From the NCBI GenBank assembly GCA_051362555.1, contig CM120641.1, positions 42,042,401 through 42,106,400 of the forward strand: a DNA stretch of 64,000 bases. The letters are read 5' to 3'. Shown one piece after another: positions 1-62,964 of the stretch. The first letter of the stretch is position 1. Every line of letters starts with the position of its first letter. A program made the translations under genes and the position numbers. This DNA is from Lingula anatina (lineage: Eukaryota > Animalia > Brachiopoda). Below the pieces are notes generated by a model. It did not search any database. It was not told where the DNA came from and saw only the letters and a list, made by a program, of their open reading frames with translations.

Positions 1-67
1 GACCTTGCTGAATAGTTCCAAAATAAACCATTTTCCTTCTTCTATAACGACTTCATTTCATTCATAC

Positions 68-2640
68 CTGATCCTATAGGGTGAATACGACCGCATGCAG
101 CCCCCACGTTTTCGTTCCTCTTCATCAGGTCCACCAGGATTTGAACGGCAGAAGGCTGGAAATCAACGTCGCCGTCAAGAGCCAAGAGGAACGTGTTTTC
201 AGCCAGCTTTCCAACTTTGTTTACGTTTTCTACCTTCTGCATCAGGCGATAACCCAAGAAATAGTAGAGATACATCACCTGAAATTATCAAATTAACGTT
301 ACTTATAAAAAAATTGAAACGTGTTTGCCTATTAAATTAGTTCAAATTATCAAAAATAATGTTAGTGTACAATAAAATGTTAATTATTTTAAATTTACCT
401 GACTCCATCTTTTTCTATGTCGTATCTTTGCTTTATCTTTAAGGTGTGCCACCAACTTATTGCCACCAGGTAGCAGCCATACAAGACGACCCCCATACGG
501 AGTTGGAATCTTTGTAGGAGGAGTGATGGACATTGGAATTCGATGTATGGAGCTGAAGATAAGAAGTTCTATGATTTTAGATGGTCATTTTGTTTTATAG
601 AATAATTGTTGGGATGTTGTAATGCCATATTTATGTGATAATGATGAAATTTGCTACTTCCTGTAATAATGAAATTAAAGCAAACAAATAACAATTTGGT
701 GTGTGTCAGTATTAATTTTTAAATAGGCTGATATCAGTATAAAAATAGTAACTGGATATAAATGGCCATATGCTCTTCAAAGACAAAGAGAATGTATGGT
801 TTACAATTTTCTATTTTCAGTCAGATTATTTTCTCTTTGCCATCTGTATTGCACTACACAAGTCTAAAACCAGTAATCTCAGCCAAGGCTCATACCTGGC
901 AGCAATGTCCACAACACGAACCAAGAGTTTGACAAAATCGTTCACTGTGTAGTTAGAGTTGCCATCCGCATGAGGAGTGAACGCATCATCAAAGAAAATG
1001 TGACCTGAATAGATTAAATAGAGTGGCTTATCGTGCAATATTATTGAATATGGATGATTGAAGTAAAGGAAAAATAAATATTTTGAAGAAATTTGATGTT
1101 ATACTGTTATTGAGGAACTGAATCGAGGTCTCCTGAAATTGTACATTTATTATGTATCGTACATTTGGCCTAGTAATTTTATTCTTTGCGTAACCAGATT
1201 TCTTACATATAAACAATATTTCTTTCTCTTGACATTTTCTTTCTCTTTCATCAGAGATTTAACCCAGCACCCTTGCCGTTCTCTCCGACAATATCAAAAA
1301 CGGAAAACAAAAATAAAATTTTAATTTGAGTTTTTACCTTCAAACTCATAGTAATCCGGGTCATTTACGTCGAGATATTGCTGCGCCAGGCGACGGGAGC
1401 ACTGGTCCATGTCAAGTCTTCAGGCGAAACAAAAAATAAAGACCTTTTATCATTTGAATGTTTTTTTAATTAAAGTAAAAAAACTTCTAAAAAATCAATG
1501 TCGTACAAGCTCTTGCCATCATACATGCAGCTGAAGTGACACTATCGACGCAAACTTATTATGAATTCAAATGTTAACTGCATTTTATTATGCTGAAGCA
1601 ACTATTAACAAAAACGAAAACGTTCGTACACACAACCCCCCCCCCCCCCCCCTCGGTGGCAAGGGTTGTCGAAACAACCGCCCTTTTGGTCGGATATGGC
1701 TCGCTCTGAATCAGATTTTGACTCGGGGTTTAATTCCATTTTTCTAGTTGGGTTAACTTAGGGGTACGAACTTATATGCCCCCTATTTCTTGTCTATTCT
1801 TTTTATGATAATTTAACTTACCTGAAAATTGACTTCAGCATCTGTAACATCTCGTTCTCCGTCTCGTGCCACATGGTGGCGCAGATGTAGATCAAGGGGG
1901 TCTTGGGGTTTCGCCTTGCTACAGAAGCGGTATAAACACGTCGGGTGTCGTCGAACGATTTCGGGTTGTTCATTACCTCCTCCACGCGCATGTAATCACG
2001 TACCTAACAAATGAATTCGAATATTTCATTTTTCTATTAAAAATTCATTTTTAATCATCTTTTGGTTTGCTTTCATTTAAAGTGGGCACGAATTTACACA
2101 TTTTTTAATTTTTTTTTCTGAAAGTTTTATAAATGAGGTAAAATACTGTATGTAGTGCTTGGTGTCAAAAAAGCCTTAATACGCAATCCATAAAACGGCT
2201 CTATTAGAGAGAAATGTCGTAAACTCTAACTTTTCCCACACAAAAAACTACAACCAAAAATGCCATGTTGTCCCGTTGCAAAACGCTATGCCATCACATG
2301 ACATCACTTTATGATTGTAGAAGCACGTGACCCACCTTCTCATCCCTCATAAACTCCCTGTCATCTCGGCGCCTGTTCAGCTTCATGTCCTGTTCTAGAA
2401 GAATGCTGCAGTTGAACGGTTTCACAAACAACCTGTTGCAAAAATGATCAAGTATTTTTTTTTCATTATATCATATTACACGGTAGAAAATTTCCAGCAC
2501 ACTGACGCATAAAGCATACATATATACATATCTTTCTTTCTGAATTTTACTATTTTATACACATTTTTCTTATAAAACTTCAATTTTAATTACAGCAATA
2601 ACCTTTTCGTTATTTCTTGTTATTTTTATCTATGTATATC

Positions 2641-2679
<39 letters not shown>

Positions 2680-4651
2680 TGAGAGAGAGATTATTTACTT
2701 CTCTCCCTTGGCCAGCCGTTCAGATCTTGGCATCCAGATATAAAAAGTTATCCATGCAAGTGATGGCCACCAAATTATCCATATCCACAGCCAGCGGTAT
2801 CTCTCGCTCAAGTCGGTGGTAAAGTCGGGAAAGTTCCACTCCAGATGATTAGTGATCAGCTGGAAAAGCAAATTGACTTTAGACTGTAAATCAGTGTGGA
2901 CATAGTGTATTTTGGCGCGAAATTATATCATGCCTTCAACAATTTCTTCAGAACTAATGATCGATAGATCTTGTAGAAAACATCGATATGTCCTTTGAAA
3001 AAGTAAGAGCGAACATTCCTCATCTGTTGTATGTGGCTATTTTATTCAAGTTAATGGTTACTAGCAATTCCACTTAGTGCAAAATGTGTTTTGAGCAGTG
3101 AAACCTGGAAAATATACAGTATATAAGCCCTGATCTATTCACACACTGTTCTGTTTATTTTGGTGTTAAAATCATTCTTAATATTCAGTTGTTTGTTTGC
3201 AAACGTGTCAACTTAAAGCGGAAAGCCATAGAAACGAATAAATCAAAATTGAAGACATGTTTGGTAAACTTACAGAGGAATACGACTTGTTCTCATCCGA
3301 GCCAAGGCCGATGAGTATGGCAACTGCGACAGGTGTCGCCACCGATAGGGGAGCAGCAAAACTAACCCGCTGCATCTGTATCTTACAGGCCGTTTTAGCG
3401 CAGTACCAGCAGACGAGACTACAGCACACCTGGTATGATGCAAACGTAGGCTACGTTTCAATATCTGTTAAAGTGGGGAATAATTTTTCGACAAAAATTT
3501 TTTTAATAAAAATGTGAACATTTCGACTGTATGGTTTACAGTTGGACTGATTTGTTACCCACCTGTATCAGCATGGCAATACCTGCTTCCCAAGTGGCTG
3601 AAGAAAAATAAGGTTCTCCTTCGATGTCCTGATTGTCAGTTCCCTTACATCGTTGGAAATCCAAATGGAACAGCGAAAATACGTCCAAACTGTTTGTGCT
3701 GACGAGCAGTGCCAGAAGTAGTACCGGGGTTATAGCCAACTTCCACGCACTTATGAAAAAGTATATTTTGTTCTTTGCCTGGCGTATTTTTCTCTTATGT
3801 TTTACCAAAGCCTTGTGGATGAAACTGCGGTCTGGGAGATTGCTGAATTTGCTAGATTTGCGGTCAATCCACACAAAGTTTTCCCACCAAGATAAAGAAA
3901 TGAGAAATAGGGAGACGGGTACGAGCCACATTCTAATGGCCGGGGTAATGGCAGAGTTGTCATACTCATTATAGGTCAGATAAAGAGAAGTCTCTGTATC
4001 TGTCGCATTTTTCCTTGATACTGTCTCCAGAGTAGGGACGAAAAACAGTGCTGAGAGCTGAACTAGAATCGCTAGTGAGTCTGAGAGCATGTGTGTACGG
4101 CGGTACTTCTCGGCCTCGGCACGTGGGCGCAAGATAAGCTGAAGAAGGCTGGGTATTAGCGCCACTCCGTGCATAATCAGCAAACCTTGAATGATGTCAA
4201 GAAAGGGAAGGACGAGGAAGACGAGGATGCACAGTCCAACTGAGTGACACGTTTCTACGACAAGAACCTGCAAAGCAACAAAATATTTCTAAGCTATAAT
4301 ATATCTCCACATAAAGATAACTTTATTGCTGACTTTCTGTCCACAGGGTGACTTTAAGATGTTCATTTGTAGATGGATTGTGGAAACAAGAACGTCTGTT
4401 CTGTTTGTTATGTACCTATACAAAGAGTCATCAAAATATTGAAAAGAAAATGATTTTTTATTATACTGCAAATATTAATAAGTGTCCCACATTTAGAACC
4501 ATTGTTTTCCTTGTAGACTTCACACAATGATGTTCATGGAAAAGTTATTTGAAAATTGTCAGAGCTTGCCATTTTTAACATTGTCTTTATTTTCATACTA
4601 TTATTTTTTAATTTTTAATTATTTTATTTTTATTTATTTACTGATTGATTT

Positions 4652-4694
<43 letters not shown>

Positions 4695-7600
4695 TTTTTT
4701 GAGGCTCGACAGCAGAACTTGTATCCACCTATGTAAGTAGTTGCCTTGACAACACAATTAATTAGAAAAATGACGAACAAAATTATTGGTTAGATGTACA
4801 TGTATTTGTTATCTTGGCATCGTGGCATGATTGACGCAACCCACGTAAAGGTGTGCTTTAAAAAAGTGTCATCGCAAAAAGGCGATCAGTTAATTATTTA
4901 GCAAACAGTTTTGAAGATAGAAAAGAAATAGCTATTTAGGTTATAAACACTCTAATGATCCAGTCTACTTTTTACTAAAAGAAGCAAACTGATAAATCCA
5001 TTAAAATAACACAACTAAAGCTACATTTCCCCCATTTTGAACCCCAAGCCTTGGTCCATTAAACGAATGCGATAAAAACCTGGTATATAAACAAGTGACT
5101 CAAACCACCGTCATCACTCGAGGCAAGACAGCCAAGATGTCAGCAAGCCACCTCTTTTATTCAGTGGTGCTAGCCACCACCCTCTTTTATGCCGCAGCTC
5201 AAAAGTTCCCGTCTGCGGATTATATCGCGAAAGTTCATGAGTTGCATCGTATAAATTTGCAGATCAAGTTTATAGAAGAGAAGATGCTCACCGAGTGCAA
5301 AGGGTTTCACATCAATGTTGCTCCACTTGGTTTTCCAGACAACATCTTTGGGAAAAGGAGCACTAAAACCATTGAGGAAGTGCAGTTTGAGATAGAGCTC
5401 GCAAAACCTACGCTGTCAAGCTGGAAAACGCAGTATTTTGCGTGCAAGCAAATATCACTGCGGAAAGGTATGAAACCACCTGATGAGATTTTTTTCTAGT
5501 AAAGACTTCTCTCACTCAAGTTTATTTCTTGTATTTTGGATAAAAAAGGTACGTCACCTTGGTGTATTCAGCCTCACATAAAATATCATTTTTGCCAGTT
5601 AAGGCAACCAGAACGATTACGATATACATGTAAATGTACATTAACACTTATATCGGACATGTTTCAACACAATCCCCATAAATGATTTTTTCATCAGTAA
5701 AATAATGAAAAAATAACAATTGAATCTTAATCTATTTTATTTTAGTAATTGATTTTATGTAAGGTAATCAAGATTGCATTTCATTATACGAAAAAAATTG
5801 CATTCAGGTTATGAATTTGGCCATGACATTATGAGGAATGGTCGATGTCGGATTTTTCGCTAAAATATAGATTAAAAGGAAGAAAAAAGCAAAAATTTAA
5901 TAAGAAGAAATGCAGTGAACTGCACCTCCAAATGTGTTAAATTTAGCATGAAGTTTATGCTACATGCTAAGCCTCAAAGACAGCTTCACTGTATGGGGTT
6001 TAGAATTTTCGCCATTTAAGTTTTAATATACAGAATTAAGTAAAGCATATTATACAGGGCTGTGTTTTTTTAGGATAATTGGCTTGGGTTGTCAATACGT
6101 TACATGATAATTGTCTGTGACAAAAAATGCACCATTTTGAAGTGGCTTTCTTCTTTTTGTGTGAAAAACGCTAAATATCGATCAATTTATTGGAGTCAAT
6201 TTGGGTTTGAACTGTAGACGGAGAATTGATATTCGTATAGGTGTACATACCCGCCGTCGGATTTTTCAGTTTAAGGAACAGACATCTTAAAATGCACATT
6301 TTCATATGGAAATATTCAAAGAGTTATGCGGCACGTTAGTCTTTTATCTATAGTCCATGTAATTAATTATTCGAGATCTTTTAACTATTTTCTCTGCGTC
6401 ACCAAAGAAAAACAATATCCAAAACAATTGACAAAAATGGCCTATAACGATCTATTATCCCGTTTTTACAACCACGATTGAAATTCGAAAGTCTTCGTTT
6501 CCATTACAAAGGCGGCTTAGGCCTATACACATTGGAGATTCAGGGAAAAGTGTTGAAATTTGCCGGAAAAAATATTCATTTTCGATTTTTTTTTTTACTT
6601 TTATATATTTGATTTAATACTTTCTTTAAAAAAGTTGTCAATTTTTCCATATAAAGGTCTAACGCACACTGTAGGATTCATCCAAACGAATATGGGCAGA
6701 TATGCCCCCTTCGCTAACATGAAATGTCGAATTCAACCCGCGTCTTACCAGCGTCAAATGCCCAACATTAAACCAAAATTTCGCAATATTTTCCCTTTTA
6801 GCGAAGTGGGGGAGGATGGTAAGCCTGCTGAATATTTTTTTCTTGCTTGCCTGCTATGACAAATAAGACATATGTTTTTTATAATCATATAGTCGCAACA
6901 CATAAATGGGTCTTTTCTACATGTCGTATTCTAAGAGATGTTTTTTTTTTAATCGTATGTCCTCTTTTTGGCCATTGATCAACTATTGCTATTCTCTTTA
7001 TAATTATAGGTGTGTTTCTGTCTACATCCCTAAAAAGTTAGTCCCATGTTAGTCTTTTATCTATAGTCCCATGGTCTAAGTATTCAGTTTATTCAAGATA
7101 TGTAAATCATACCGGTATATCTCAACACTATTGCTATTCACTGAATATCACAAATAGGTGGAAAAACCATCAAGACACCTCCTTGATAAGGCACCTTTGA
7201 CACGTGCCTGCCGTTCATGACTCCAGCTGGCTGATATATATTCAGACAGTATACGAGATAATTCGTGGACCAGGAAGGTAAATTAACCGAATAAGGTTAA
7301 GGTTAGACCAATCAGGGGATAGGCAGTAGTGTGTTTTGAACGTTTATATTTATCAACCACCCATAGCATCCAAATATATTACTTATTAACATGATATGGA
7401 TAAAAAGCATATCTCCGGTAAAGATTCATGAAAAAATCAATTACCATGGAAGATGTTCGTAATTTAATGTTAAAACAATCAATGTGGTTTGTTGGTTTTT
7501 TGTTTTTCGTCATCTTATCAAAACATGGTCAAATAAAACTGCTCATGATAGTGTTTTAACAATTGAAAAATTTAAGCAAACTTTTAAAATTACAAGTCTC

Positions 7601-10600
7601 TACCAGAGGCCAGCTGAATAGTGCAAGGTCATTTGAAGGAAGGGATGGGGGTCTGCGGGTGCAAAACCGACCATCACCATCCCCCCTTTGGTGTGGGGTT
7701 CGGGGCCCGCTAAAGGGCCCCAAATTTTTTTGGTATTTTAAAAGAGGGTGAACGGTGCCATTTGGTACGGTTTAGAACTATGATTCAGCTTGTCAAAATT
7801 TTAATTTAATTTCAAGAGGGTACCACTTGTGTATTTTTTTTTTTTTCAGAAAACGAAGGGGGGGGTCAGGACCCCCCCCCCTCCCCCCGACACCCCCTTA
7901 ATCCGTCACTGTAATGGTGTCCAATTCGTGCAAAATATCTCGTGCAAAAAGTTGCACAGAATTAGCCAAAGAAACATCCGTGAATTTCTGGTGAAAAATC
8001 AATCTGTGATTCTTATATTGGGTATAAAATTAATTACCATGTATTCCTATGAGTGACTAGTTGCAGATTATCGCTTACCACATCGTTTATCTTTCATGAA
8101 CAGCTAAACCATGTCAAGACGGATTCGTCAACTTTGAGGATTCCTGCTACTATTTCAAGTCTTTCGTTGCACAGAAATTAACCTGGGACGAGGCCAGAGC
8201 CCGTTGTCAAGCAAAGTCAGCAGACCTTGTTACCATTGAGTCCAAAGAGGAACACGAGTTCCTTAAGAAAAATCTTAAACGTAAGTTCGCTTTTACGTCA
8301 TTATGAGTAAATTCATTTAAATAAATTTTGTAAACTGCTCTCTGCAGTCTAAACAATGTAAGTTTAACGCTCTATCTATTGGTTTTCCACCTCTCAAATC
8401 ATCGACAACAAAACAGGTTAACGTTTTTAACTGCAATAAGCCAGTTGGATGTTCATTAAAAAAGAATAAAAACAATGAAACTCTCAAAAACATGGATTAC
8501 CCAGAATACACGTGTGGAATATTCTGTCTTTCAGCCATTACTAAGCAAGGTATTTTCCAAGGCTGGTTTGTGGGGGGTAAAAGACGCCCTGGTTTCTTTG
8601 CCGTTAGCAAACAGCAATACTACTGGGTGCCTACTGGGGGAACTGTTACCTACGACGGGTGGAAGAAAGCTGAAGGAGTGCCAGGTGATTACCAACCTGA
8701 TGGTAGCGGCACATGTATGATCCTGTGGATTGGAAGAGAAGACTTCGTTGATTACGAATTTGACGACTGTAAATGTTACGGCATTAATGATAACTTGGGT
8801 TTTATTTGTGAAAAACCAAATCAGTAAATTATGGATCACGACCGCACAGCACCACTTCAAGGTATTAACTTTCAAAAAGATTCGGAAAATATATCCATTT
8901 AATTGTCCGAACATTTCGTCAATTGTGTGAACATAGCGAAAAGGATTTTAATTTCCCCTGTATGATGTAAAGGAACGCAGCTTTAATTTTTATCATAAAT
9001 GAAAATAATAAAAACAATAATACTGAATGACCAAGATAAAAACGTCTCAAAATAAAGAAAAATTGTATGTGCTCAAATTGTTCAGATTCCAAACATTTGT
9101 TGACTTGAATTACATCATAAAAATAAAACATGAATGAACTGGCACTAACAGTTTTATTAGCATTCTTTCAATACGACAAAAGGCCTTTTTGAAAGTCGGT
9201 CGTAATCAACCAAAATTTCGTTGCGTTGAGCAAGTTAACTCTACCAATTATTTTAATGGCGATGTTGATAACGTTATACTGTAGCTCTGCTTTGCCAGAT
9301 GCTAATACCAAAGATTAAAATGCTCTCAATTGCACATTTGCAAAAGGAAATCAAAACGGTCTCATCGTCTGTTGAATTTCTGAGCGTTAAAAAGTGCAGT
9401 GTTTGTCTTGCTTTAATTGCACTGTTATCGGTCATGTCTTACTGAGTTTTAACTGACAGTCAAAACTGTTAATATGGTTCTCCAGGATTTTAATTCGTCT
9501 TTTTACTAGTGCATTCTCAAAACAACGATGTCTTTACATTTGTGTTTCGTTTGAAAAGCACTGTCATTTCCTCGGTTTTACTGATATTCAGAATAAGATG
9601 AGTATACTTGCACCACTATATAACATTAAACATTTAACATATTTAACATTTTCTATATGCACTCTCATCGTTATCAGTAAGTCACCCGACAGGCGCCGTA
9701 TCATCTACAAATTTCACGTAAAAAGTTTTCAAAACATATTAAATACAACGTTTCAAATGTGTTGATGTTCAAAGAGGAACGAAACATGTGGAATAAGTCT
9801 ATTTTTGGATGAAATGGAAATAGCACAATCATGTTGTCCTTTGAAGCACAATCATGAATCACGTCAAGTGCTCAAAAATTCCAATAATCTCAACTAACAC
9901 ACCAAGCATTTATAGCAATCAGTACTCACAAGCCACAAGATATCTATAGGTTCTCCTCCTGTACTCTGAGAGTACTTTCAAGTTTACATTGACGGGTATC
10001 TAATTTTTCCTGTCGGAAGACGGTCAAAAATGGAGGATGGAACAATAAAGATAATTTGGAAGCCTGTCAGAAAATATGTCTGGATCCGCCCCTGCTCTCT
10101 CTCGTATCCTAGCACATGTAAATATGCCATGAGATGGGTTTTTAGGGCACTTACTCATTCCCCTCGATACACAATTTTAACTTAACCACACACTGAAAGA
10201 AATTAGTAGTACTTTAACAGATAGTGCCTTTTAAACCAACGTTTATTCATATTCACAATTGCAAGCTCTCCTTAAAAAAAGGAAGAAAATAAGTTACACT
10301 AAATTGTTTAAAAAAATACACAAAGATACTGGTAAAAAGCTTAAACTCTCTTATTACATGTATGTTATAATGAGACAAGGGCTTGTTTGTACAGTGTATG
10401 CGTGAACATATCAGGGAGAAGGGAAATGTTCCCAGAAATATATTTCTTTAATACTTGTGATCCATACCTAATGCATTACTGTTTTTTTTTTAATAAATTT
10501 CGAATCTCAGTGCTTCATACAATTTATGAAGAGTATCGGCAAAATACACTCCCCTTGACTTCTAAATTCGACTTTTAAATTCGATGAAGTCTATCCACAC

Positions 10601-13600
10601 TAATTTTACGAACTGTAGTTAGCCTCTGGTCAATATTCTTAAACGAAGGATCCTTTATGGTCAATATATTTAAGAGACTCTCGACTCTTGCCCATAAACC
10701 GCCGACTTAAGGCACCCAAGCTCTTGAAAATTAAGTACTTAAAAATGCCCATTGATAACATGATATATGAGCTGCATCTTGTTTTATATTGAAGTGCCTT
10801 TTCTAATAGGGAGATAAGGCATACTTTATCATTGGCAAACAACAAAATGGAACTTGCCTTCCACAAAAAGCGTTGGCGTACAGTGCTAAATAAGTTAAAT
10901 AACTTAATGGCGCATTGTAGTGGCTAATAAATGCATAGAGTGTCGTTTTTTACTATTTATAATATATAAGTGACGGGATTTTATTTGTTTTAGTGATCAT
11001 CATATGTTAGAAAAGCACAGACGATAAGATATTTGTTTCTTTACGAGAAGAGGAAGAAGTATTAAGTTTTATTTAACTTTTTTTAAAAACATTTTTGTAG
11101 AAATCTTGTACTTATAGTTTAAAAGCTTTATCTAATAAACCACCCTAAGTCTTATTTCCCTGCTAACTCCCGTTTGGTCTTAAAATATTTTACAATATAT
11201 ATGAAGAACAGGCCTTATCAATTTTTTATTAAACAATTTATCAATGTTCAAACATTTGCAAAACAAACGAAATGCCTTATACTGTACATTTATCAGGCAC
11301 AATTGACAGCTCAAATAAATAAAGGGTTTTTTCATCGAGGTGAATTCCTGTCAACAGCAGATTTAGAGTGAAATGTTTCTTTTTTTTTCATGAGCAAGAC
11401 TGACCAGCCACTTTACCAAACATTAATTAAATCATTGATTGCAGATCAACCCATCGTGGGCCAATTTTGCAATTCTTGTCCAGGGATGATCAATTTTTTT
11501 CATCGATGAGATTTTTTATAAATCCTGCATAAGCACGAATTTACTTTTTCCGTGTGCTTAAAACGCTTTCAACCTCGTAGGGCCAAATGTACTGTAAAGT
11601 ACCTGAGGTCAACTGACTGGTGACTTCAATTCGATTAACTAATTTTCAGAGTAAAGAAAAGTGCACATACTTAGCCAGAGACATAACATAAAGTGAAAAT
11701 CGATCTGTGACCCCGGTAAAGAGTACATGAAATACGATGTCCACTTTTCCGCCTAATCCCTTGGCCCTGTTAAGTATTAACTCTAAACGATATCATTGAT
11801 ATTTCAGAACGCTGTGGCGTAATAGTGGATATAGTTGCTATGCTGCTCTAACAGTAGTCTTGTGTGCTAACGTGCTGAACGGCCGTTCTAGCTGGAGATA
11901 ATTGAGAATGTGGACACAGGGCCTGAAAACAATTTTCATTGAGGATATAGGTATAATACCAATATACTCCCTAGCAAGGTCTCTCTAGCTCTTACACTGT
12001 ACTTAAGGGGCTAAAGTCCTTCGACCGATTCTATAACTGCAAGAACAGCAAGTGAGGTCTCTGATGGACAGTAATCATAACAAATGTACATGTCCAACAG
12101 GGAAAAGGAGGGATGTGGCGAAATAAAGGCTTCATGACACAATGATTACATCTATACATAAAAAAGAAAGACAAAATCGTGTTCCATATTTACTTTAATT
12201 ACAAATCTGCAACAATCAGGCATATCGAAATCCCAAGGGTAGTCTTCTTCTTAATCTTTTTATTTTTTCTATTGATTGATTAATTGGGGTTTAATCAGTC
12301 CTTAACTTGAGTCAAGCGCTCAAAAATTGTCCACGTCACCAGGAAAACGTGTTGTTTGTCTCGACAAAATTCCATGCGCTGTTCTTTAAAACATTAATGT
12401 CTAGCCCTCAAAATTTACTTTGTAAACAGATAAGCATTTGTTGCCAGTTACTTAAAAATGAAGCAGACATACAGAAAATGTTAAGTTGCACATAAATAGA
12501 TTGATGACTTCCGGGTTTGCCTTCTACCGAAATTTATCTTGATTCCTAAAATTGGTGTATAAATAGAAACTGATATATTTAAAATTGCGGAAATTCGTTG
12601 TAGGGGAAAAGTTAATTTAAGTTTGATAATATAATTGTTTCACTATGTGATATGAAAAAAATAATGTGTCATCGATGTAGACCAAAAGCAAATAAACAGT
12701 CGTGTTAGACTGAACTTGCTTTTCGTCGACTTTCAACTCCAAATCTCACATAATTTTTCCCTATTAAATCATAATAAATATTCATCTGATAAAATTTTGC
12801 CTCAATTATTTCAGCATATTTTGTATACACCTTTAGGCTTGTTTTCGAACCACTCTGTGAATATAATATTTCTAGCTTCTTTGCATTGTCTCATCCTGGA
12901 AAAAGAGATCTCGGTACAGAGTCTAACATAAGTGGTACGTAATGATAAGAAAATTATTTACAGTCTACAGAATCATAAAAATAAAAAAATAAACAAATAA
13001 TAATATTGAGACCCATTTTAACAGCACTTTTATTTAAATTACCAGGAGTGGTAATGAACTTGTGAACAAAATTTTAGTGACACCATGAATTGATTTTTGT
13101 AATTTTTGAACAGGGTGTTTCCTTCATAGCAATGTACTTATGTCAACATGTCAACAGTTGTGTGTGTTCAGTATCAGCCGGGGGGCGTAATGGCCCTCGG
13201 CATCATGCTGATAAGGGTAGAGGAGCGTCAGCAACTTGGCTGTATTTAGTTTGCCTCGTAAGGCAGAGTTCCGAGAAGAGCCGAAGAAGTTATATACCCA
13301 TGTCCATTCGTTACAATCGTCCGTGGTTGGATGATCGTTGACCGATGCAAGTTTGCAAGTTTCTTTAGTGTAAGCTCAAATTATGTGTTTAAACTACACC
13401 CACGCGCTCCTTATATTCTAAATACCGATTTATTTACATATATCGGCACATCTTTTTAGATTATGGCGGTTGTGAATGCCGGATCCAAATTCCAACACTC
13501 ATGGCTTATGAAATCCCTTTTTGAGATAGTATTTTTCTACTTCTTAAAGCATAGTCATTAAGAAACTGTTATAAGTGCACCACACCCATGTGATTTATTT

Positions 13601-14985
13601 GACGCTTATCTCCTTACTTCAAGTTACGGCATTTAAACTGTCCACTCAGTTACTGTAAATCACTGATATGTACAATTCTTTTTACTGGACTGTAGATGAG
13701 AAATTGACCTTTCTCTCTCTCTCCCTTTTTTTCTCTCACTCTCTCTCTTTTCAAGGTATATATCAGTGCTTTAAATCGCACCCGGCCAATATTTGTCTCC
13801 AACTATTCCTAGTTCATTCTTTCTCAATTTGCAGGGAACATGAATATAAGTGATAACATAGGCAAATACCTAGATTTCTTGTTATGCTATCAGCCACTTT
13901 ATCTATAACATTATTATAATTCTAAAATCACCAGGCGACAACTGTTTAACTGGGACACAGAGACAGAGACAATCAGTTGCTTTGGATTTTAATAACATTT
14001 CCACGCAGCTTCTTTTTTTCACAAAATTATTTAAAGTGTATTGTTTGATCACCATTGGACCCACACAGAACTAAGTGGGATTGGATATTTTTGACAAAAG
14101 TATTACTCTGCATTTTTTTGTATAGACAGAAATGGCATTTTGATGAAGACAAAATTGCAAGCTTCAATACACTGGCTTACTGTCTGGGATAAGGAAAACA
14201 CACAATTACATTTATAACTTGGTAATGTTATGGGTGGGATGTTTGAAGACCGTATTAAATATCAATTTTATCCGTTTTAGTTTTTTCTTTATAGATTTCA
14301 ACATGCATAAAAGGACGAAATATAAGTACAAAAGTAGCTTATAAAATAAAAATAATTGGAATATAAACAAATAGAAAAAATAAAGCCATCTTGTCATCTT
14401 GTAGGTTTCAAATCGGACCCTTCATTTTTGCCCTAAATACGATAGCTAAATACAACTAAACAGAAAAATATAAAGAATAAATACACGGAGTCTACTTACC
14501 GCAAAGAACGTCCCCAAACTCGGCCACAGCGTTACCTTGAAGAGAACCTTGAATAAACACTGCATGAAAGTTAGGAGATAGGGAAAACACATGGTGGCTG
14601 CAAGCCCCCATATCCATCTCACGGAGACCTCATCACAGCGAACCCTATCCGTCAAATTGGTGTTTTTGTGAACTGACGGATCCACTATACAGTTCGTCAA
14701 ATTCCCAAACATGTCAACCTCGCAAGTCAGCCACTTTTCTGTCCTCGACTGGGCCACCGAGATCATAAGTGTGATTTTATGGATGACGGTCGACCCGAGG
14801 ATGAAGAAGAGGAGAAGCCAGTATACGATCACCTTGCAGACCCGCTTGGTTACCTCTAGGCACCAGCTCTCTGAGAGTTCTTCGTTGTCCGGTGATGTTA
14901 TACGGAAAATGTCCCAAAGCTTGGCGGCGGGTCCCTTAGGCCTGTGGAATAATGAGTAGTTTTTTAAATTTTCATTTATGAACTG

Positions 14986-15057
<72 letters not shown>

Positions 15058-15603
15058 GAGAGAGAGATTGAGAAGATGGGGATGCAGCACAGGAGGTTAA
15101 ATACATATATCACAAACAGGACGATTTTTTAATTACAATAAATGTATGAAAACTCGACATTACTTTACGCCCTGCTCTTTTGGCATCTTCATTGCTGACT
15201 TTCTCCGCGAGGGGGGTGGTGACGTCGGGAACGGTGGTGGTTTTTCTATCTCTGTCTTTTCATTTGGAGTATCTAAATGTTTGTAAGCCGGAGGGTCCTC
15301 TTCGTCTTCATCTTCATCTTCGTCTTCATCTTCTGAATCGCTCAACTCAGGCAAGGTTTCTGCCTCGCTGGCTTCGCTCTCCCTTCGCAAACGATTACCA
15401 CCAAATCTGTTTAATCCAGTACTAAAAGTGAAATTTTCCATGTTAAATAAAGTTGAATTTTTTTGCTCTAAACCGAAAAGAGATCCCTTGCGAACCACAT
15501 GTCCGATTTCACCGTTCATCGCCGAATCAAACTTCCCAGGGGTAATTTCCACATCCCCCGGGTCTGGCAGCGGCGTTAGAATATCGTCTTCGGTGTCTGA
15601 CAT
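68..15603 (-). CDS. CHS: Chitin synthase, tandem copy A (5' part; gene continues beyond the left edge). Coding exons: 15164-15603, 14500-14941, 3563-4267, 3274-3429, 2699-2859, 2336-2432, 1822-2003, 1338-1417, 896-1004, 399-552, 68-278
   Basis: Exons are bounded by GT/AG with consistent phases. Motifs seen: [60 protein letters not shown]. The exon structure matches copy B one for one. ATG at 15603 gives an acidic/Pro-rich N-terminus. Confidence 0.95.
5084..5118 (+). promoter_or_regulatory. TATA box and initiator-like element of the nested gene
   Basis: TATATAAA at 5084-5091, a TCATCACT Inr-like sequence about 25-30 nt downstream, and the ATG at 5137. AATAAA motifs follow the CTLD stop at 9007, 9051 and 9122. 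Confidence 0.6.
5137..8827 (+). CDS. Nested antisense gene: secreted prohormone-like N-terminus fused to a C-type lectin domain (about 266 aa). Exons 5137-5467, 8104-8280, 8535-8827
   Basis: ATG at 5137 is followed by a hydrophobic signal peptide ([21 protein letters not shown]). Phase-1 donor G|GTATGA at 5468 matches the phase-1 acceptor CAG| at 8103. Exon 2 reads [17 protein letters not shown]...[29 protein letters not shown] (CTLD N-half), with donor GTAAGT at 8281 and acceptor TTTCAG at 8534. Exon 3 reads WFVGG...YYW...W...QPD...C...FDDCKC...FICEK-stop. The CTLD is certain; the junction to exon 1 is inferred. Confidence 0.75.
7600..7911. mobile_element. GC-rich non-autonomous DNA-transposon (MITE-like) remnant in intron 1 of the nested gene
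   Basis: G/C-run hairpins (GGGGGGGGTCAGGACCCCCCCC, GGGCCC...GGGCCC) and an end ATCCGTCACTG that resembles the GGATCCGCCCCTG end at 10082-10094, typical of invertebrate MITEs. Confidence 0.4.
9270..9720 (-). mobile_element. Decayed non-LTR retrotransposon 3' fragment (Rex1/Babar- or L2-like RT C-terminus)
   Basis: The minus strand translates to [19 protein letters not shown] (cf. FADDT), KTEEMTVLF (cf. KTKEMIVDF) and KARQTLHFL...[14 protein letters not shown] (cf. the DUF1891 region), with stops and frameshifts. Confidence 0.7.
10400..11060 (-). mobile_element. Possible highly decayed LINE RT fragment
   Basis: Only weak resemblance to CR1/L2-type RT C-terminal segments (AVYG..R..L-like, KT.K-like), with many disruptions. 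Confidence 0.3.
14988..15068. repeat. (GT)n(GA)n compound microsatellite in intron 1 of CHS copy A
   Basis: Directly visible. Confidence 0.95.
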
Positions 15604-16224
15604 TGTATTTCCAGAAGTCACCTATTACGCTTACAGCACTTTTCTGCCGATAAAACTTAGCTAACGCTCTTTTCACTATTCGGAGCGATGGCTGATAAGA
15701 AGAAACGACGAGAACTCTCGAAACGGCAATCAAAAAGTTTGACTTGCCGTGCCGGCGCCGCAACTTACGTAACTGATACAAGTATCGGGCAGGCTAGAAA
15801 CAAATGATCACGAAAGATCGTCAGAGTGTCACATTTCTAGTGACAAAACCGACGTCATTTTATACGACATCATCCAGTGGTAAACTTGTCAATGATTACC
15901 CACGTAACTACCGACCGGTCTTACTCCAACCGGATACAGTGCCACAGTGATTGGGCCAATAAAAAACGCACTTCAATAAGTGCATAGATTATCAGTTATT
16001 ACGAAAGCCGCACTTTGACCTGTGCAGACACTGGCGGTATTAGAGGTTTCCGTCCAGTGGGACTTCTGTGGCACTGTTTGTTTTGTTTGTTGATTTTGTT
16101 GATAGTATAAAAATGCTCGTGCAGTTATAAGCTTACCCTGACAGCCACTAGAAATTAATGATAATAAGTGTAGACTTCTAGTTCTTAGAATTTTTTATAC
16201 AAGTCCGTGCATGTTAGTTTGATT

Positions 16225-18984: not shown

Positions 18985-21900
18985 TTACAATTTCTCACTC
19001 CAAAGAACGTCTGTGTCATTATCAGTCATAATTTCGGGGATAGATCCAGGTGTGTTGGCGAGACTAGATCCAGGTGTGTCAGCGGGACTAGATCCAGGTG
19101 TGTTGGCGAGACTAGATCCAGGTGTGTCAGCGGGATAAGACCCAGGTATGTCGGTATACACTCCTTCATCTCCCTCGAACGCAGGGTTATCGTACTCCTT
19201 GTTCGGCACGACCGGTACATCAAACGTGCCGCTTGCCGAGCTCTCCGCCGATTCGTTGATAGTCTCGATTTTCTGCGCCTTGACAACTTTCTTCAGTTGA
19301 AACGCTCGGGTGAGCTGGATGGCTCTGGCTGCCCCTTTCCATTTGTTACGTAATTTGGAAATCTTCTCTTCTTGGAAAACCTTGTCCCACTCATCGGCTA
19401 AGCTTGCTAGAGCTTCGTTCCGTCTTCGATCCTGGTAACTGGCAGTAATTTCGCTCTTTCTACGTTGTTGCTGTAGTTTCTCGGGCCCTTGGTCGGACAA
19501 TGCCAAGAAACGGTCAACAAATGCTTTATTCATAGTCGCGTACCCCTCCTTAACTGTCTTTTTTTTCTTCTTGACGTGTTTCTCGAAGGACTTCTTCCTC
19601 TCTCTGGCAAAATTAAACTCTTCGTCGGAGGCACCGGAAGTAAAGCTGCAAACGGACAGCCTGTCGGAGTCGTCATCGCAATGTTGTAGACGTTGTAAGT
19701 CGCGCACAAGAGCGATCTTTGCGGCGGTTTGATCTAGTTTTCCTGACACAGGGGTTGTAGACATGATGTGCCAGAAAGTCAGCAGACGATGTGCTATCAT
19801 CCCAAGAAGCTGAATGAGGAGAACTAACAGAAAGAATATCAAGAAAACCGTCCCGATTGGCTCCAAGTTCAGCTTCTTATGACTGACGTTATCTTTACAC
19901 ATAATCGGCCAAGTAATAGAAAGTCCGTAGTCTTTATTGTCTTTCTGTTTTTGAAGCACAAAGATGACAACAACAAAAATGGCGTTCAGAAGAAAGATGG
20001 CGAATGTGATCTTGTTGCGCAATCGTATTAGCTCAGAAGCCATGTGCTCCTGATGCTTCGGGTCGTTTTCTAAAGGGAACAGGTATTGTTTGATGAGATC
20101 TTTCCAAAACTTTGTCTCCGCCTCTTCTTGGGGAATTATAGGACCCTCCTTCAGCCCTTTGTCCTCTGTCCACATTGGATTGACGAGTTCGTCGCGTTCT
20201 TCTTCTTCAAACATTGGGTTAACTGTATTGAATGAAAAAGAGGCATGAAAGCAGACTAAAAATCTGATGCCGATGTGCAGATTCGTGTACTTTACTGAAA
20301 TGTTACGGCATAAAGCCACACAATACTATTAAACTGCATCTTTCCACAAACAAGTACATGAAGGCCTACAGGTACTTTGTAAATGTTCGGTTGTAAATGT
20401 TCTTTCTTTAACACTGTGCCAAAAACCTGCTGAAAAATTATTTAATCTATTGGTCCAAAGTGCCGCGCATCGTGGTCCAACTACTGTAGTTGATGGACCA
20501 AAACTCTGGCCTGGAACTGAACAAATTTTATGATATTTCTTTTTTTTTTTTTTTTTTTTTTTGGTATTTGGCGTGTGACTAGTGATAAGTGCAGCGAGAT
20601 GTTCTTCATTTTTGAAATGTTTCAAACATACAACAAAAGACAAACCTACCGGTAAACACGTCCTCCTCCAAGATATCTAATTTTGGGAAGTCTCCGTTCT
20701 CAGTCGTAAAAGACGGTCTGCGTTCTTCCACCATACCCTCAGTGCGCACACGTAAATAACTCTCTGCTGTGGAATCTGACAAACAAAAAAAAATGTCTTC
20801 ACTGACAATTACTTCAAACGTATTTAAAATGAAAAGCAAATATTTGTTTGTGATCTATTTCACGTAAACAATTTTTTTTTGGTTCCCGTCTCGTTTTAAC
20901 AACTTGCAATTGCAAAGTAGTAAAATCTTCGTAAAATGAAAGACAAATTATAAAAGCAATATAACTTTTAGAACTAACGTTTTTCATTACACCGTATGTC
21001 CGAATATACTCAATTAAAGAAAAATGAAAATTACCTCTTCCACCAACCACCGACGTTTTCTGATTCAGCAATTTCTTCTCCATTTCATCCATGCGAGAAA
21101 ATAAGGCTTTCGTCTTTTGATCCTCATCTATACTGTTGTCACGTGGACAGCAGATACACCGGAAGAGTTTTCCAAACGTTAATTTGAACCCGTCTTCGTC
21201 CTTTTCAGCTCTCACTGCGCTAAAAAATTTCATCAAGGCTGCACTAGGTGAGTTGGCTGTCTTTTCTTTAGCTGTCTTGGATTGCTGTTTATCTTCACTG
21301 GGAGTTGCCATTTCTGCAACCTTGACCTCTCTCGTGCCCCATGAGACCACGTGCAGGTTGCACATGGAGTATATAAATAGCAACAGGTACATACTGGGAA
21401 TAAGCAGGTAATACAGCACGCCGGCAAACACACAGTAGAATTCCTGCGGGTGGAGGATTGCGGCCAACAGAAAGGCGCCAGCAACAAGGAAAAAGAACAA
21501 GGCGGTAGGGGAACAGGCCCCTTGCGCTTTAATCTGCAGACTGATGCTGACCAGAACCAGTGCCATCACCAAGGCGTAGATTGAGGACATTAGGAATGCT
21601 ACAAACAGCTGGAACGTAAAACATTTGACCATGAATTTCACTTAAAACCGATCCCAACCGATTACAAGGACAGAAAAAAGTTAAACGTGTTTCTTTATGT
21701 TTAAAAGGAATGAACAAACTAACATATATAATGGAATTTTCCAAAATGTTCTAATACTTATCGCAATTGATCCCCTAACTGCGACGTTTTAAATTTTTCC
21801 CATCAAAAGTTCACGTGTTTGTGTACTTTTTTTGTTTACCTCCTCCCAAGATACTTTTAAGTATTAAAATATATTTCTTGTATGTAATCATACATTTTCT

Positions 21901-22644
21901 ACGTCTGCATTAAGAACGTATGTTTCATCCTTTTATTTATGAATACATAAAAATACCAACCTGAATTTTTGTACTTGTAACAAAACATAGTATGATGAAT
22001 ACCACGATGGGCACAAGGTTAATCCAGAAGGCCACATCATTCTTATCATAACCATTTCCACTCGTAGTACAGTTGGCTCCCGTGGCAGCCTGGTTGCAGT
22101 CAAAGACAGTGATAGTTTGGATAGCTCCTACAACCACCAAGAATATTGTTCCCGGTCCCAAAATGGAAGACACCATGAGACACGCTTGGTAGATGATGTA
22201 TAACATGGAGATGTCCTGGTTCGCCTGAATAACCAACATATTACATATGATTTTCACGCATATGTTGTACTTTAAATTCGACAAATGTGGACGTTTCTTT
22301 TTTTTGTTTGTTTGTTTGTTTGTCGCTTTTTTGGTTGTCATGTTTTATATTGCCTTGCTTCCTTCTTTCTTATGGGGCAGATTTTTGAGTAACATACAAT
22401 GGCAACAAGGCTAGACCATTACTTCCAGTGAGACTTCGTCACACTTAACTATTCTGTTATCTGGTTGACATCTATATGAATGATTTTATTGTTCATTCAG
22501 TTAATTAAATTTTGTACATAAAATACTAAACAGTCGTAATTTACATCAGTGTGCTTAAAAATAAAGAAAGGGTGATTATTAACTGTCGTTGATATACTTC
22601 TCAGTTTAAGCAGAAAGGTAACTTAACCCACTGTTGGCTAACTT

Positions 22645-22687
<43 letters not shown>

Positions 22688-25600
22688 TAACGCATCGCTA
22701 ATAGGTAGAGTTTAATAGTATACCCTGATGGTGTGTTTGAAGCTGAGGAGCAAGTCCATAACGTTAGCCATAGTGGATGGTGACCAACGTCTTCTTTGGT
22801 TGAAAAATTCGTCAAAGGTCTCTGGAGCGTAGGTAAGAGCGTCAGAAGCAGCACTATACTCCACGCGGTATCCTTGCTGAAGTAACAGGGTGCAAAGCCA
22901 ACGATCTTCACCTGCAAAGCGGAAATGAAAAAGGGTGTCCAGTGGCCGTTTAATGCTAATATTTTCCTTTTCAAGTCTGTTTCTACCCAGAAGACTACTT
23001 ATTCAATTCGCCACAACCGTTTTATTATTATTATTATTATTAATCTACAATGCCCCTTTATTTACCAAAGACATAATTTAAAATTGCTAATCACATGTTA
23101 ACTGTTTATTTTCAACAAAGCATCAACTTCTATTTCAAAATTGATTTAAAATGTAATATTCAACGTTGGGTTTCATCATTTAGTGATTTAATCACAGTGT
23201 GAATAAAAATGCGCGTTTTGTATTTAAGGTACATTGTATACCTTTAATTAATCAATTATTCAAAGGATAATTGTCGTTTCTGAATACCTTGGTCGTACTG
23301 TAAATAGTGCACAGCTTCGGTGGGAGTGGTTGCATATTTCCGCATCACGTTATCGTCCATGAGAGCAGAACCGCGAAACAAGCTGAAACATCCGGGGCTG
23401 CAGAGAACGCAACCAATCATATGTTCCGTTGCTTTCTGGAACCAATGTGAGACAGCATATTCGAACTTCTGGTACCAAACCATAGGACCTTAAACGAAAG
23501 CGAGAAACTGAATGTTTGTTTTACAAAATGTTATAAAATAATTATAAGTAAATAATAAAGAAAGTGATACTGATTGCTTGCTCGTTTTCAATAAAATATA
23601 AATATCCTTGTTCGTGTTTTCATTCCTATGGGCTAAATTATACGATGTAAAAACAGGAATATAATCCGTCTAATCGTACGCACGAGTGGTCTCCGACTGT
23701 ATCTTTTGCTGAATGATTCCAAATATTTTGCCTTACTCTTTAAAGCGACTTTATTTCACCTATACCTGAGCCTATAGGGTGAATACGACCGCATGCAGCC
23801 CCCACGTTTTCATTCCTCTTCATCAAGTCCACCAGAATCTGGACGGCAGATGGCTGAAAGTCAACATCGCCGTCAAGCGCCAAAAGAAACGTGTTTTCAG
23901 CCAGCTTTCCAACCTGTTTTACGTTTTCTACCTTCTGCATCAGGCGGTAACCCAGGAAGTAGTAGAGATACATCACCTGCAATTATTGAAAAATAACGCA
24001 GGTTTCTAAAATTTGGAATGCGTTTGCCTTCCTTGCTAAACAAGTTCAAGTTATCAGAAATAATGTCAGTGTACAATAAAACGTTAATTATTCTCAATTT
24101 ACCTGACTCCATCGTTTTCTATGTCGTATCTTTGCTTTATCTTTAAGGTGTGCCACCAACTTATTGCCACCAGGTAGCTGCCATACAAGACGACCCCCAT
24201 ACGGAGTTGGAATCTTCGTAGGAGGAGGGATGGACATTGGAATTCGATGTATGGCGCTGAAGATGATAAATTCCACAAATTTTAGGAGTTTCATAGTTTT
24301 CAGGAATGATATTTTTTTAGAGAACAATTATCTGGATGTTGTTATGCCAAATTTCTGTGATATAAGGAGCTTCGGTAGGCTACCTCCTATAACAATTAAA
24401 TTAAAAGTGAAAGTGAATAAAAACTGTGTGCGTGTGACTTTAAAAGTCACTGATACCAGTACCAAACTATAAGATGTAATCGGATAAAAAATGGACAATA
24501 AAAATGCTGGTCAAAGTCAAAAAGGAATGCAATGTATATTTTGCCATTGCCCTACATGTACTTCATTTGTATTTTTCCTGTATGCCATCTGCTTTGCACT
24601 ATACACACGTCTAAAATCAGTAATGTGAGCTAAGGGTCATACCTTGCAGCAATGTCCACAACACGAACCAAGAGTTTGACAAAGTCGTTCACTGTGTAGT
24701 TAGAGTTACCGTCCGCATGAGGAGTGAACGCATCATCAAAGAAAATGTGACCTAAACAGATTTAATAGAGTGGCTTATCGTGCAATATTATTGAATATGA
24801 ATCATTTGAAATTAATTTCACCAAAGGATATCTAATCAAATTCTCTACAAATTTTGGTGAAAAAAACTAACAACAATTTCAACTGGATCCAGGTCTCCTA
24901 ACATATTTTTGTTATCTTACATTTTGTCTTGGCGGAGGTCTGCATTTTAAAAGTGTTCTGTAGTAATCTTCATCTTTTCGTTTCTCCTGACAAACTACTT
25001 TTTTTCTTTCCCATCTCAGATTTAACCCAGCACGCTTGTCGTTCACTCCAACCATACCAATTCAAAAACAATTTTTTTTTTCAATTCTCACCTTCAAACT
25101 CATAGTAGTCCGGGTCATTTACGTCGAGATATTGCTGCGCCAGGCGACGGGAGCACTGGTCCATGTCAAGTCTTTCAGTAAAACAAAAATAGACACATTT
25201 TACAATTTTGAATATTAATTTTTTTAAGAAAGAAAAAAGACTACAGAGTGAATATTTGAATTTTGTTAAGACACTAATCGATACACAAGTATAAACAACT
25301 CTTCATTGTGATCCTAATCAATGCAAATGCTGTAAAGGTACATTTGAACCGAGCGACGGTGGAACGTCGATTCCCGGTAACCAGTTACTGTCCTACTTAT
25401 CCTACCCAACATTTCTCATATTGGGTCAACCGCCGGGGTAAAAGGTCCGCTTTTTAAGAAAAACAATCTATTGAAAATTTTCTATTGTACGGCGGCTACA
25501 GACCTGCCTCTTGTCTGTTATTTTAATAATACTCTTACCCACCTGAAGATTGACTTCAGCATCTGCAACATCTCGTTCTCCGTCTCGTGCCACATGGTGG

Positions 25601-28390: not shown

Positions 28391-28433
<43 letters not shown>

Positions 28434-31400: not shown

Positions 31401-31688
31401 ACAGCCCAATTAATTTTGTTATTCTTTGTACGAAATGTTATATTTACAAAAGTTTCAAAAAGAAAGAATGTATGCGTCTTTCTTCACTCATAAATTACAT
31501 AAAGGACCAATTTATTATAGAAAAATTCAATGCATTAAAAAAGCTAAATTTAACAAACTTTGAAAAAAAAATGGGAAAATTGGTCAGACATGTTTGAATT
31601 TAATTAGCTTCAGCAAAATAATATTTTGCACTTTTTGCTTGTTTAATAATATGTTGTAGTTATGGATGAATACATTGTGGTATCGATC

Positions 31689-31747
<59 letters not shown>

Positions 31748-36863: not shown

Positions 36864-37910
36864 TTTTGAAGTTTCCTAAAAAGCCAACTTGCTAATCAGC
36901 GTGCGTCTTTCCAAAGTGACGGCGACAATCTGCGTTTTGCAATTTAGTTACGAAAAGTTATTTAAAACGCCATTTATTTTTTGTGGGTAAAGAACATTTT
37001 ATTTGTTTGCAAATCTGACGACAGGGATTCATTAAGATAATGGAACCTGATAATAGTTAATAAGCAATGTCAAATTAATCATTCCCTGGTTAGATTAATG
37101 TTGGCGATAATGTAATCAATAAAAATCTATCGCTATTTGGACTAAACTTTTTTCTTGGTGTTTGATCAAACCAGGTAGTTTCTTACGAAAAGCAACAGTA
37201 GCGCATTTCTGCGATTTTTTAAACAATTTATTACCTTTATTTTCCTGCTATTTGGTCACGCATGGGCATTATGTAGAATAAACTTATCTGATAGCCGTTT
37301 CAAAAGCAGTGTTAAATGCCGTTTTAACATGAATGCAGTACTTACCACTGTTTCTTTCTAAAACGCAAACAGTGATTCATAAGATTACTTTCCCAATTAA
37401 GCTTTTCAACCTAAAATAAATCGCTGCCAAAAGAAGGACACCCTTTGTATTTCAGGTCGGAGAGGGCAAATCTAATACCACGAGTCCCTCTGTAACAACG
37501 TTGTTAGGGTAATGCTTTTATTATTGGTACATAATCAAGACCTACATAACATACACGGGAATAAATTACTTCATCTATTACATCTTTACATTATCACAGA
37601 GGTAAAATCATGAATAGCTAAGTTTTTGTCTCCCTTCTTTCTGACTAAAAATAATAAATTAAAAAAATAAATAAACAAAATGAAAAAAATAAAACCAACA
37701 GCACTCACAGTATATTATAAGAGTTGAAAAATCAAGCACCTAACATAATTAAATTTCAAATAAGGTACGATTGTGATTGAGGATGTGTATTATAAAAATG
37801 CAACCCTGGGACAAATGATCACATAAAAATCTTGAGAATTTTACAATTTCATAATCTACTCGTCGCACGGTAGCAAAGCAAAGGGGTCAGGCGACTTGAA
37901 GTGCGCAACT

Positions 37911-58126: not shown

Positions 58127-62964
<4,838 letters not shown>

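What the first reader, a model, noticed from the sequence alone, without database searches (positions are those of the whole stretch)
5084..9130. Nested antisense gene in a chitin synthase intron: prohormone-like precursor spliced to a C-type lectin domain
Seen: the ORF track shows 5095-5499 and 8492-8827 as unrelated and misses 8104-8280. A phase-1 GTATGA donor at 5468 joins in frame to the phase-1 CTLD exon at 8104, which I found no other signal-peptide exon for. The product is signal peptide / Q22...NIF71-G-K-R / helical spacer / long-form CTLD, with its own TATA box and AATAAA sites. Established: G-KR is the prohormone convertase + CPE + PAM signature for an amidated peptide, and N-terminal Gln can cyclise to pyroglutamate. 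Inference: one precursor would give a 50-aa pGlu...Phe-amide peptide plus a lectin chain. I do not recognise this N-terminal module or the architecture. Its location inside a chitin synthase suggests co-regulated secretion into a chitinous matrix (shell, radula, chaeta or gut lining), for example a bioactive peptide tethered to glycans.
Basis: partly seen in the sequence, partly recalled or inferred. Interest (0 to 1): 0.85.

Follow-up and report, generated by a model that had tools for sequence, protein, structure and literature searches.

The report
Lingula lectin with shuffled cleavable stalk
A predicted secreted sugar-binding protein gene lies backwards inside a chitin synthase intron of a lingulid brachiopod; its front part is an undescribed two-helix module that Lingula also puts in front of other binding domains, and it is likely a cleavable stalk rather than a hormone.

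Summary
The gene model holds up on sequence: three exons (5137-5467, 8104-8280, 8535-8827) give a 266-aa signal peptide / helical module / C-type lectin, antisense in intron 2 of chitin synthase copy A of a Lingula. The splice is not shown by RNA: 4 of 9 listed runs were laid and none had exon reads (inconclusive). The hormone reading is weak. A full HMMER search of residues 22-110 found one relative (E 8.7e-6), a cluster of three Lingula anatina proteins where the same module precedes EGF + LCCL. There the site reads LRKRR, furin-type, without the glycine needed for amidation, and the would-be amidated end is not conserved (linker 3 of 18 identical, helices 11 of 28 and 10 of 25). Both helices, the basic site and two cysteines are kept. 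A predicted fold puts the helices parallel, both cysteines at one end. Most likely this is a portable secreted module, cut in its linker but held together, carrying different recognition heads. Co-regulation with chitin synthase has no support: the sister copy lacks the gene, and the QPD motif points to galactose, not chitin. New variant of a known kind; modest interest.

The parts
5084..5090 (+). TATA box (TATATAA), 47 nt before the ATG
   Evidence: consensus match only
5137..5467 (+). Exon 1 coding part: signal peptide plus the whole helical module; ends in a phase-1 donor
   Evidence: homolog P0003 E 8.7e-6, 27 of 78 identical with one gap
5137..5199 (+). Predicted signal peptide, residues 1-21
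   Evidence: hydropathy and -3,-1 rule; SignalP not available
5215..5298 (+). Helix 1 (residues 27-53) ending in Cys54
   Evidence: AlphaFold2 model, pLDDT 87-89 in its core; 11 of 28 identical to paralog, Cys kept
5350..5358 (+). G-K-R (72-74), in the linker; aligns with R-K-R of the paralogs' RKRR furin-type site
5371..5460 (+). Helix 2 (residues 79-108) with heptad repeat and Cys103
   Evidence: pLDDT 89-90 in core; heptad; 10 of 25 identical
5468..8103 (+). Intron 1 (2636 nt, GT-AG); holds a dispersed repeat near 7743-7807
   Evidence: junction not seen in reads
8104..8280 (+). Exon 2: first half of a long-form C-type lectin domain (Cys114, 125, 145)
   Evidence: Pfam PF00059 E 7.2e-7; 73 PDB sequences at E up to 0.001, the 60 shown being C-type lectin-domain proteins
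8535..8827 (+). Exon 3: second half of the lectin domain with QPD (223-225, nt 8693-8701), FDD in place of WND, Cys230, 248, 250, 261, stop
   Evidence: and motif reading; no profile match on its own; best of 5 in-frame acceptors by pyrimidine count
9007..9127 (+). Three AATAAA signals (9007, 9051, 9122)
4268..14499 (-). Host: intron 2 (10.2 kb) of chitin synthase copy A
   Evidence: splice sites; flanking exon matches PF23000 and Lingula anatina LOC106176561 at 97%

Best explanation
This is a three-exon gene for a predicted secreted C-type lectin whose first exon is a portable Lingula module, two helices joined by a linker with a basic site, that is likely cut in the secretory pathway but likely stays in one piece as a stalk under the lectin head. 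Shown: the module recurs in front of EGF + LCCL in three other Lingula proteins, with both helices, the K-R and two cysteines kept. Predicted: the helices pack in parallel with the linker running back between them. Inferred: Cys54 and Cys103 meet at one end and form a disulfide; a convertase cuts after K-R; the N-terminal 50 residues remain attached as a light chain; the stalk presents or bundles the recognition head, and cutting matures it. Inferred: the head binds galactose-type glycans in mucus, haemolymph or matrix, as a pattern-recognition or adhesion protein. Its place in the chitin synthase intron is most likely a recent, functionally unrelated insertion.
For: One hit among 1.84 billion representatives, P0003, E 8.7e-6; three L. 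anatina members; EGF and LCCL after the module. Alignment score 130 against a maximum of 47 in 5000 shuffles. Identity is in the helices (11 of 28, 10 of 25), not the linker (3 of 18). Paralog site RKRR fits R-X-K/R-R. Heptad core of helix 2 kept in both. AlphaFold2: helices 27-53 and 79-108, mean pLDDT 78.4, pTM 0.69. Best structural rows are up-down-up three-helix bundles aligned over 76-86 of 89 residues (e.g. 1gvn_A Z 8.3, rmsd 2.8; 9rgv_A Z 7.6, rmsd 2.6), which implies parallel helices. In the paralog the two module cysteines (53, 105) are left over after the six of EGF and six of LCCL. P0003 and P0005 differ at 0 of the first 109 positions and 25 of the last 136: fixed stalk, variable head. 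Exon 1 ends in phase 1, the phase that suits exon shuffling (general knowledge).
Against: No RNA read supports the gene. The family is in effect two sequences. Only 2 of 5 AlphaFold2 models were confident (78, 72, 48, 39, 31), and the paralog folded alone was unreliable (pLDDT 38). I could not see model coordinates, so the disulfide is inferred from topology. Z near 8 for a helical bundle is only a common arrangement (note). The window's site lacks the P4 arginine of a furin site, so it may not be cut. The lectin has an extra cysteine (248) that could pair otherwise. Oligomerisation was not tested.
Confidence: 0.5

Rival explanations
1. The module is an uncut helical neck or assembly domain in this gene: the basic site is a decayed copy of the paralogs' furin site, and the protein works as an ordinary single-chain or oligomeric lectin, like tetranectin or collectin necks.
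For: No R-X-K/R-R in the window's module. The Gly codon (GGG) and the following Ser codon (AGC) are each one base from an Arg codon, which fits decay from RKRR. Heptad repeats in both helices.
Against: K-R and the downstream Thr are kept at 35% overall identity (3 of 6 site positions). The site lies in the low-confidence, exposed linker (pLDDT block 54). K-R alone is a usable convertase site (general knowledge). Direction of change cannot be told from two sequences.
Confidence: 0.27
2. One reading: the precursor releases a free 50-residue pyroglutamyl, amidated peptide hormone and a separate lectin chain, like vasotocin and neurophysin.
For: Signal peptide, Q22 and G-K-R are present; GKR by chance 1.3% in shuffles. 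Peptide-plus-domain precursors exist in spiralians (vasotocin-neurophysin; PMC8557429, passages). This copy could have gained amidation alone.
Against: All 3 homologs lack the Gly and the amidated end. Conservation is equal on both sides of the cut. The peptide would carry one cysteine with a likely partner in the other chain. No match to five short motifs of the window's module in the pro-neuropeptide supplement of PMC8557429, which names Lingula 430 times, apart from 2 unrelated limpet matches to one of them. A second GKR lies inside the lectin domain.
Confidence: 0.12
3. The junction is wrong or the gene is silent: exon 1 reads through to the stop at 5497-5499 as a small protein, or the insert is a recent, unexpressed duplicate.
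For: 0 reads on the exons in 4 runs of 1.1-1.8 billion letters each. No near-identical protein in the public collection. Exon 3 is too divergent to match Lectin_C alone.
Against: All three exons are open and in phase, with exon GC 0.435-0.444 against 0.32-0.35 in introns. The homolog also continues from the module into extracellular domains. No other signal-bearing first exon. The public model of the host gene is partial and starts after this intron, which may explain the absence. The read test had no positive control and tissues are unknown.
Confidence: 0.11

Closest known systems
Lingula anatina LOC106152117 / LOC106162175 / XP_013397664 (uncharacterised or 'lactadherin-like', 245 aa)
   Same: Signal peptide plus the same two-helix module, basic site at the same place, two cysteines.
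   Different: Head is EGF + LCCL, not C-type lectin; site is RKRR without Gly.
Secreted single-domain C-type lectins of lophotrochozoans (perlucin-like, bivalve QPD-type lectins)
   Same: Signal peptide, long-form lectin domain, QPD motif linked to galactose binding (PMC12842671, passages).
   Different: An 89-residue N-terminal module with a basic site; FDD for WND; an extra cysteine.
Tetranectin/CLEC3 and collectin necks (recalled, not tested by alignment)
   Same: Helical heptad segment on its own exon before a long-form lectin domain.
   Different: Their neck is one helix that trimerises; here two helices with a cleavable linker are predicted, and no sequence match was found.
Vasotocin-neurophysin and NG-peptide precursors
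   Same: Signal peptide, N-terminal peptide, basic site, folded cysteine-rich domain (PMC8557429, passages).
   Different: Their peptides are short and conserved; here 50 residues, helical, amidation signal not conserved, likely disulfide-tied.
Two-chain proteins cut by convertases and held by disulfides (insulin/relaxin type; recalled)
   Same: Likely working principle: cut in a linker, chains remain together.
   Different: No sequence or fold relation shown; one cut only; fused to a recognition domain.

Membership tests
C-type lectin domain protein (PF00059) | Profile match above the curated cut-off | tested here: met
   Exon 2: 30.3 bits against cut-off 22.6, profile positions 2-35 of 107
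C-type lectin domain protein (PF00059) | Second half of the domain (WIGL-like strand, calcium site 2, closing cysteines) | tested here: inconclusive
   No profile or PDB lectin match for exon 3 alone; motifs WFVGG, QPD, FDD, FICE and Cys230/250/261 are in the expected order by eye
C-type lectin domain protein (PF00059) | Calcium-dependent sugar binding | not testable with these tools
   Needs an assay
Amidated neuropeptide / prohormone precursor | Signal peptide | tested here: met
   (hydropathy and -3,-1 rule only)
Amidated neuropeptide / prohormone precursor | Gly plus dibasic site present | tested here: met
   G72-K73-R74
Amidated neuropeptide / prohormone precursor | Amidation signal and peptide C-terminus conserved among homologs | tested here: not met
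   0 of 3 homologs have the Gly; linker 3 of 18 identical
Amidated neuropeptide / prohormone precursor | Similarity to a known peptide family | tested here: inconclusive
   No Pfam, NCBIfam or PDB match; no true motif match in one supplement; no dedicated peptide library available
Amidated neuropeptide / prohormone precursor | Mature peptide detected, regulated secretion | not testable with these tools
   Needs peptidomics
Furin substrate | R-X-K/R-R site | tested here: not met
   Absent in the window's module, present in all 3 paralogs
Tetranectin/collectin-type trimerising neck | Single heptad helix that trimerises | not tested
   Heptads present, but no oligomer job was run
Nested gene | Whole unit inside one intron of another gene | tested here: met
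   5084-9127 lies within 4268-14499

The most novel reading that the evidence does not exclude
Lingula has an undescribed 'cleavable adaptor' first exon that is shuffled onto different recognition heads, and in this one copy the furin site has turned into a Gly-Lys-Arg amidation site, so that a 50-residue amidated helix is made and stays tied by a disulfide to a glycan-binding head: a prohormone-like peptide being born from a structural cleavage site and delivered by a lectin.
Probability: 0.1. Interest if true: 0.72.

Novelty: new variant of a known kind. Interest (0 to 1): 0.36.

Why it matters
Secreted lectins with lineage-specific N-terminal additions are common in lophotrochozoans, and nested antisense genes are common too. 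What is new is a definable module with no family in Pfam, NCBIfam or the PDB, used with at least two unrelated heads, invariant while the head diversifies. If the two-chain model is right it is a small, testable example of how brachiopods build recognition proteins by exon shuffling, and of how a Gly-Lys-Arg motif can mislead neuropeptide mining. It does not settle a long-standing question.

Tried and rejected
No whole genome was held, so paralogs in this assembly could not be counted. No RNA holder was listed; 9 same-species raw-read runs were offered, 4 were laid and only an intronic repeat drew reads: inconclusive, no positive control, host gene not covered. Word-index searches found nothing for exon 1 (113 candidates) or exon 3 (18 candidates). 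ESM Atlas: no usable hit for exon 1 or the paralog's module. Metagenome scan with the two-sequence alignment: 438 pattern matches, none confirmed. Foldseek on the module: nothing at E up to 0.001; no listed family stood out in the wide structural search. Antibody light-chain hits for exon 3 rest on a short shared motif and were rejected. The complex job on the two halves gave no verdict (0.33 against a mark of 0.34; alignment not used) and is not used as evidence. The paralog folded alone was unreliable. No convincing terminal repeats of a transposon around the insert. Earlier findings of the scan: nothing shown in 6 look-ups. Literature: 0 papers with all of four prohormone-plus-lectin terms; 0 with any of five paralog accessions; one irrelevant paper for furin/coiled-coil/LCCL terms; two listed for Lingula + LCCL, one checked and unrelated. 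The three paralogs are absent from the Lingula shell proteome supplement of PMC13425148, with a positive control accession found 17 times. The spliced protein was never searched or folded as a whole, so the fit of module to lectin head is open.
Full report
Observation. An ATG at 5137 opens a frame that meets a phase-1 donor at 5467^5468; exons 8104-8280 and 8535-8827 continue it to a 266-residue protein with G-K-R at 72-74 and cysteines at 54, 103, 114, 125, 145, 230, 248, 250 and 261. A TATA box lies at 5084 and AATAAA at 9007, 9051 and 9122. The donor is the only positive-scoring one of 21 GT sites in 5137-5520 and is in the top 1.3% of the window's + strand GTs, using a matrix of recalled frequencies; no other ATG-to-donor candidate between 4300 and 8060 has a signal-like start. 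Exons are 0.435-0.444 GC, introns 0.32-0.35. The predicted signal cut leaves Q22 first. Exon 2 matches Pfam Lectin_C above cut-off and C-type lectin structures. Exon 3 matched no lectin profile alone; I assign it by motifs in the expected order, which is knowledge-based reading, not a tool result.

Host and organism. The flanking - strand exon matches the chitin synthase N-terminal domain PF23000 and is 97% identical to Lingula anatina LOC106176561, so this is a lingulid brachiopod. The window holds two tandem chitin synthases. The lectin gene lies in intron 2 of copy A (14499-4268). The same intron of copy B (32158-28138) aligns only at its two ends, holds a reverse-transcriptase element and shows no trace of any of the three exons, although two of four other intron pairs tested still align well between the copies (79% and 83% of aligned columns; the other two only weakly). 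The gene therefore entered copy A, or left copy B, after a fairly recent duplication. [quoted passage not shown] In Drosophila, nested and host genes are less correlated in expression and function than nearby genes, and opposite-strand nesting is the usual case (PMC3814207, abstract; PMC4394429, passages). QPD is linked to galactose binding, EPN to mannose/glucose, with exceptions in bivalves (PMC12842671, passages); chitin is a GlcNAc polymer. So nothing ties the lectin to chitin.

Expression. No RNA holder was listed; nine raw-read runs of the same species label were offered. Four were laid on 5040-9180, reading about 6, 6, 6 and 25% of each: no read fell on an exon and no joint was seen; only a dispersed repeat near 7743-7807 drew partial reads. 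Tissues are unknown and the host exons were not covered, so this is inconclusive.

The N-terminal module. It has no match in Pfam, NCBIfam or PDB sequences. A full HMMER search of residues 22-110 against 1.84 billion representatives gave one hit, P0003, E 8.7e-6, 35% identity. Its cluster holds three L. anatina proteins of 245 residues, with EGF and LCCL domains after the module. The match is almost ungapped (27 of 78) and far above shuffles (130 against a maximum of 47 in 5000). By region, identity is 11 of 28 in helix 1, 3 of 18 in the linker, 3 of 6 at the site and 10 of 25 in helix 2. The site reads LRKRR in all three homologs, a furin consensus without glycine; the window's copy has K-R but no P4 arginine. 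Its Gly and the following Ser codons are each one base from Arg. Both module cysteines have counterparts (53 and 105). Two paralogs are identical over the first 109 residues and differ at 25 of the remaining 136.

Structure. AlphaFold2 from the single sequence gives helices at 27-53 and 79-108 with a long linker, mean pLDDT 78.4, pTM 0.69, with two of five models confident. Foldseek found nothing significant. The wide structural search returned up-down-up three-helix bundles over most of the model, top Z 8.5 to 7.6 with rmsd about 2.6 to 5.4. That is a common arrangement and shows no homology, but it implies that the two helices run parallel with the linker in the place of the middle helix, which would put both cysteines at one end. 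I could not inspect coordinates; the disulfide is inferred. The paralog folded alone was unreliable.

Mechanism. Most likely (0.5) the first exon is a portable module: signal peptide, two packed helices, a basic site in the linker, a disulfide at the far end. A convertase would cut the linker, the halves would stay together, and the unit would act as a stalk or maturation switch under whichever recognition head follows. Next (0.27) the site in this copy has decayed and the module is an uncut neck. A free amidated hormone (0.12) remains possible only as a private gain in this copy, since the amidation signal and the peptide's end are the least conserved parts, the opposite of what neuropeptide families show (general knowledge). 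A wrong junction or silent gene (0.11) cannot be excluded without reads.

Comparison and novelty. The head is a C-type lectin domain; the protein fails the conservation test for an amidated peptide precursor and, in this copy, the furin consensus. It may still work like a two-chain, convertase-matured protein. Peptide-plus-domain precursors are known (vasotocin-neurophysin, PMC8557429, passages), but short motifs of the module had no true match in that paper's precursor supplement. I found no paper naming the paralogs or this architecture, within an open-access library only; Gerdol et al. 2018 on Lingula immune genes was seen only as a reference and may cover them. PMC10140915 (passages) describes lineage-specific domain combinations as usual for these lectins; PMC6425005 (passages), PMC13425148 (passages and supplement searches) and PMC4453069 (passages) added nothing on this module. 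Verdict: real gene model, new variant of a known kind, interest 0.36.

Noticed in passing
window 1-15621 and 18985-36875, - strand: Two tandem chitin synthase genes with 73-83% DNA identity over long stretches, some introns included; the first exons are acidic and proline-rich and no myosin head was evident in the ORF lists. The public model of copy A is partial and starts in exon 3.
   Followed up: partly
window 29503-31597, + strand: Non-LTR retrotransposon (RVT_1 and zf-RVT) in intron 2 of chitin synthase copy B, in two overlapping frames; the same intron holds the lectin gene in copy A, so both copies took antisense inserts there.
   Followed up: partly
window 58070-62323 and beyond, + strand: A secreted M14 zinc carboxypeptidase of the CPD/CPM/CPN/CPE group. 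Such enzymes trim basic residues after convertase cuts; its closeness to the lectin gene is probably chance.
   Followed up: partly
window 7743-7807: Short dispersed repeat in intron 1 of the lectin gene, found in many unrelated transcripts in all four runs.
   Followed up: no
P0003, P0004, P0005 (outside the window): Module + EGF + LCCL proteins of L. anatina: N-terminal 109 residues nearly invariant while the LCCL head varies; one is auto-named 'lactadherin-like' though Pfam finds no discoidin domain in the representative P0003.
   Followed up: partly
window 19037-19152, - strand: 24-nt coding tandem repeat in the C-terminal tail of chitin synthase copy B; a similar repeat ends P0001.
   Followed up: no
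window 48774-50006, - strand: ORF fragments that look by eye like a decayed LTR-retrotransposon gag/protease; no Pfam match.
   Followed up: no
window 53271-53618 (- strand) and 45747-46301 (+ strand): A lysine-rich exon resembling an HMG-box protein tail by eye, and a low-complexity exon with a hydrophobic end; neither matched Pfam.
   Followed up: no
window 38997-39371: Three copies of a 124-nt tandem repeat, 93% matches.
   Followed up: no
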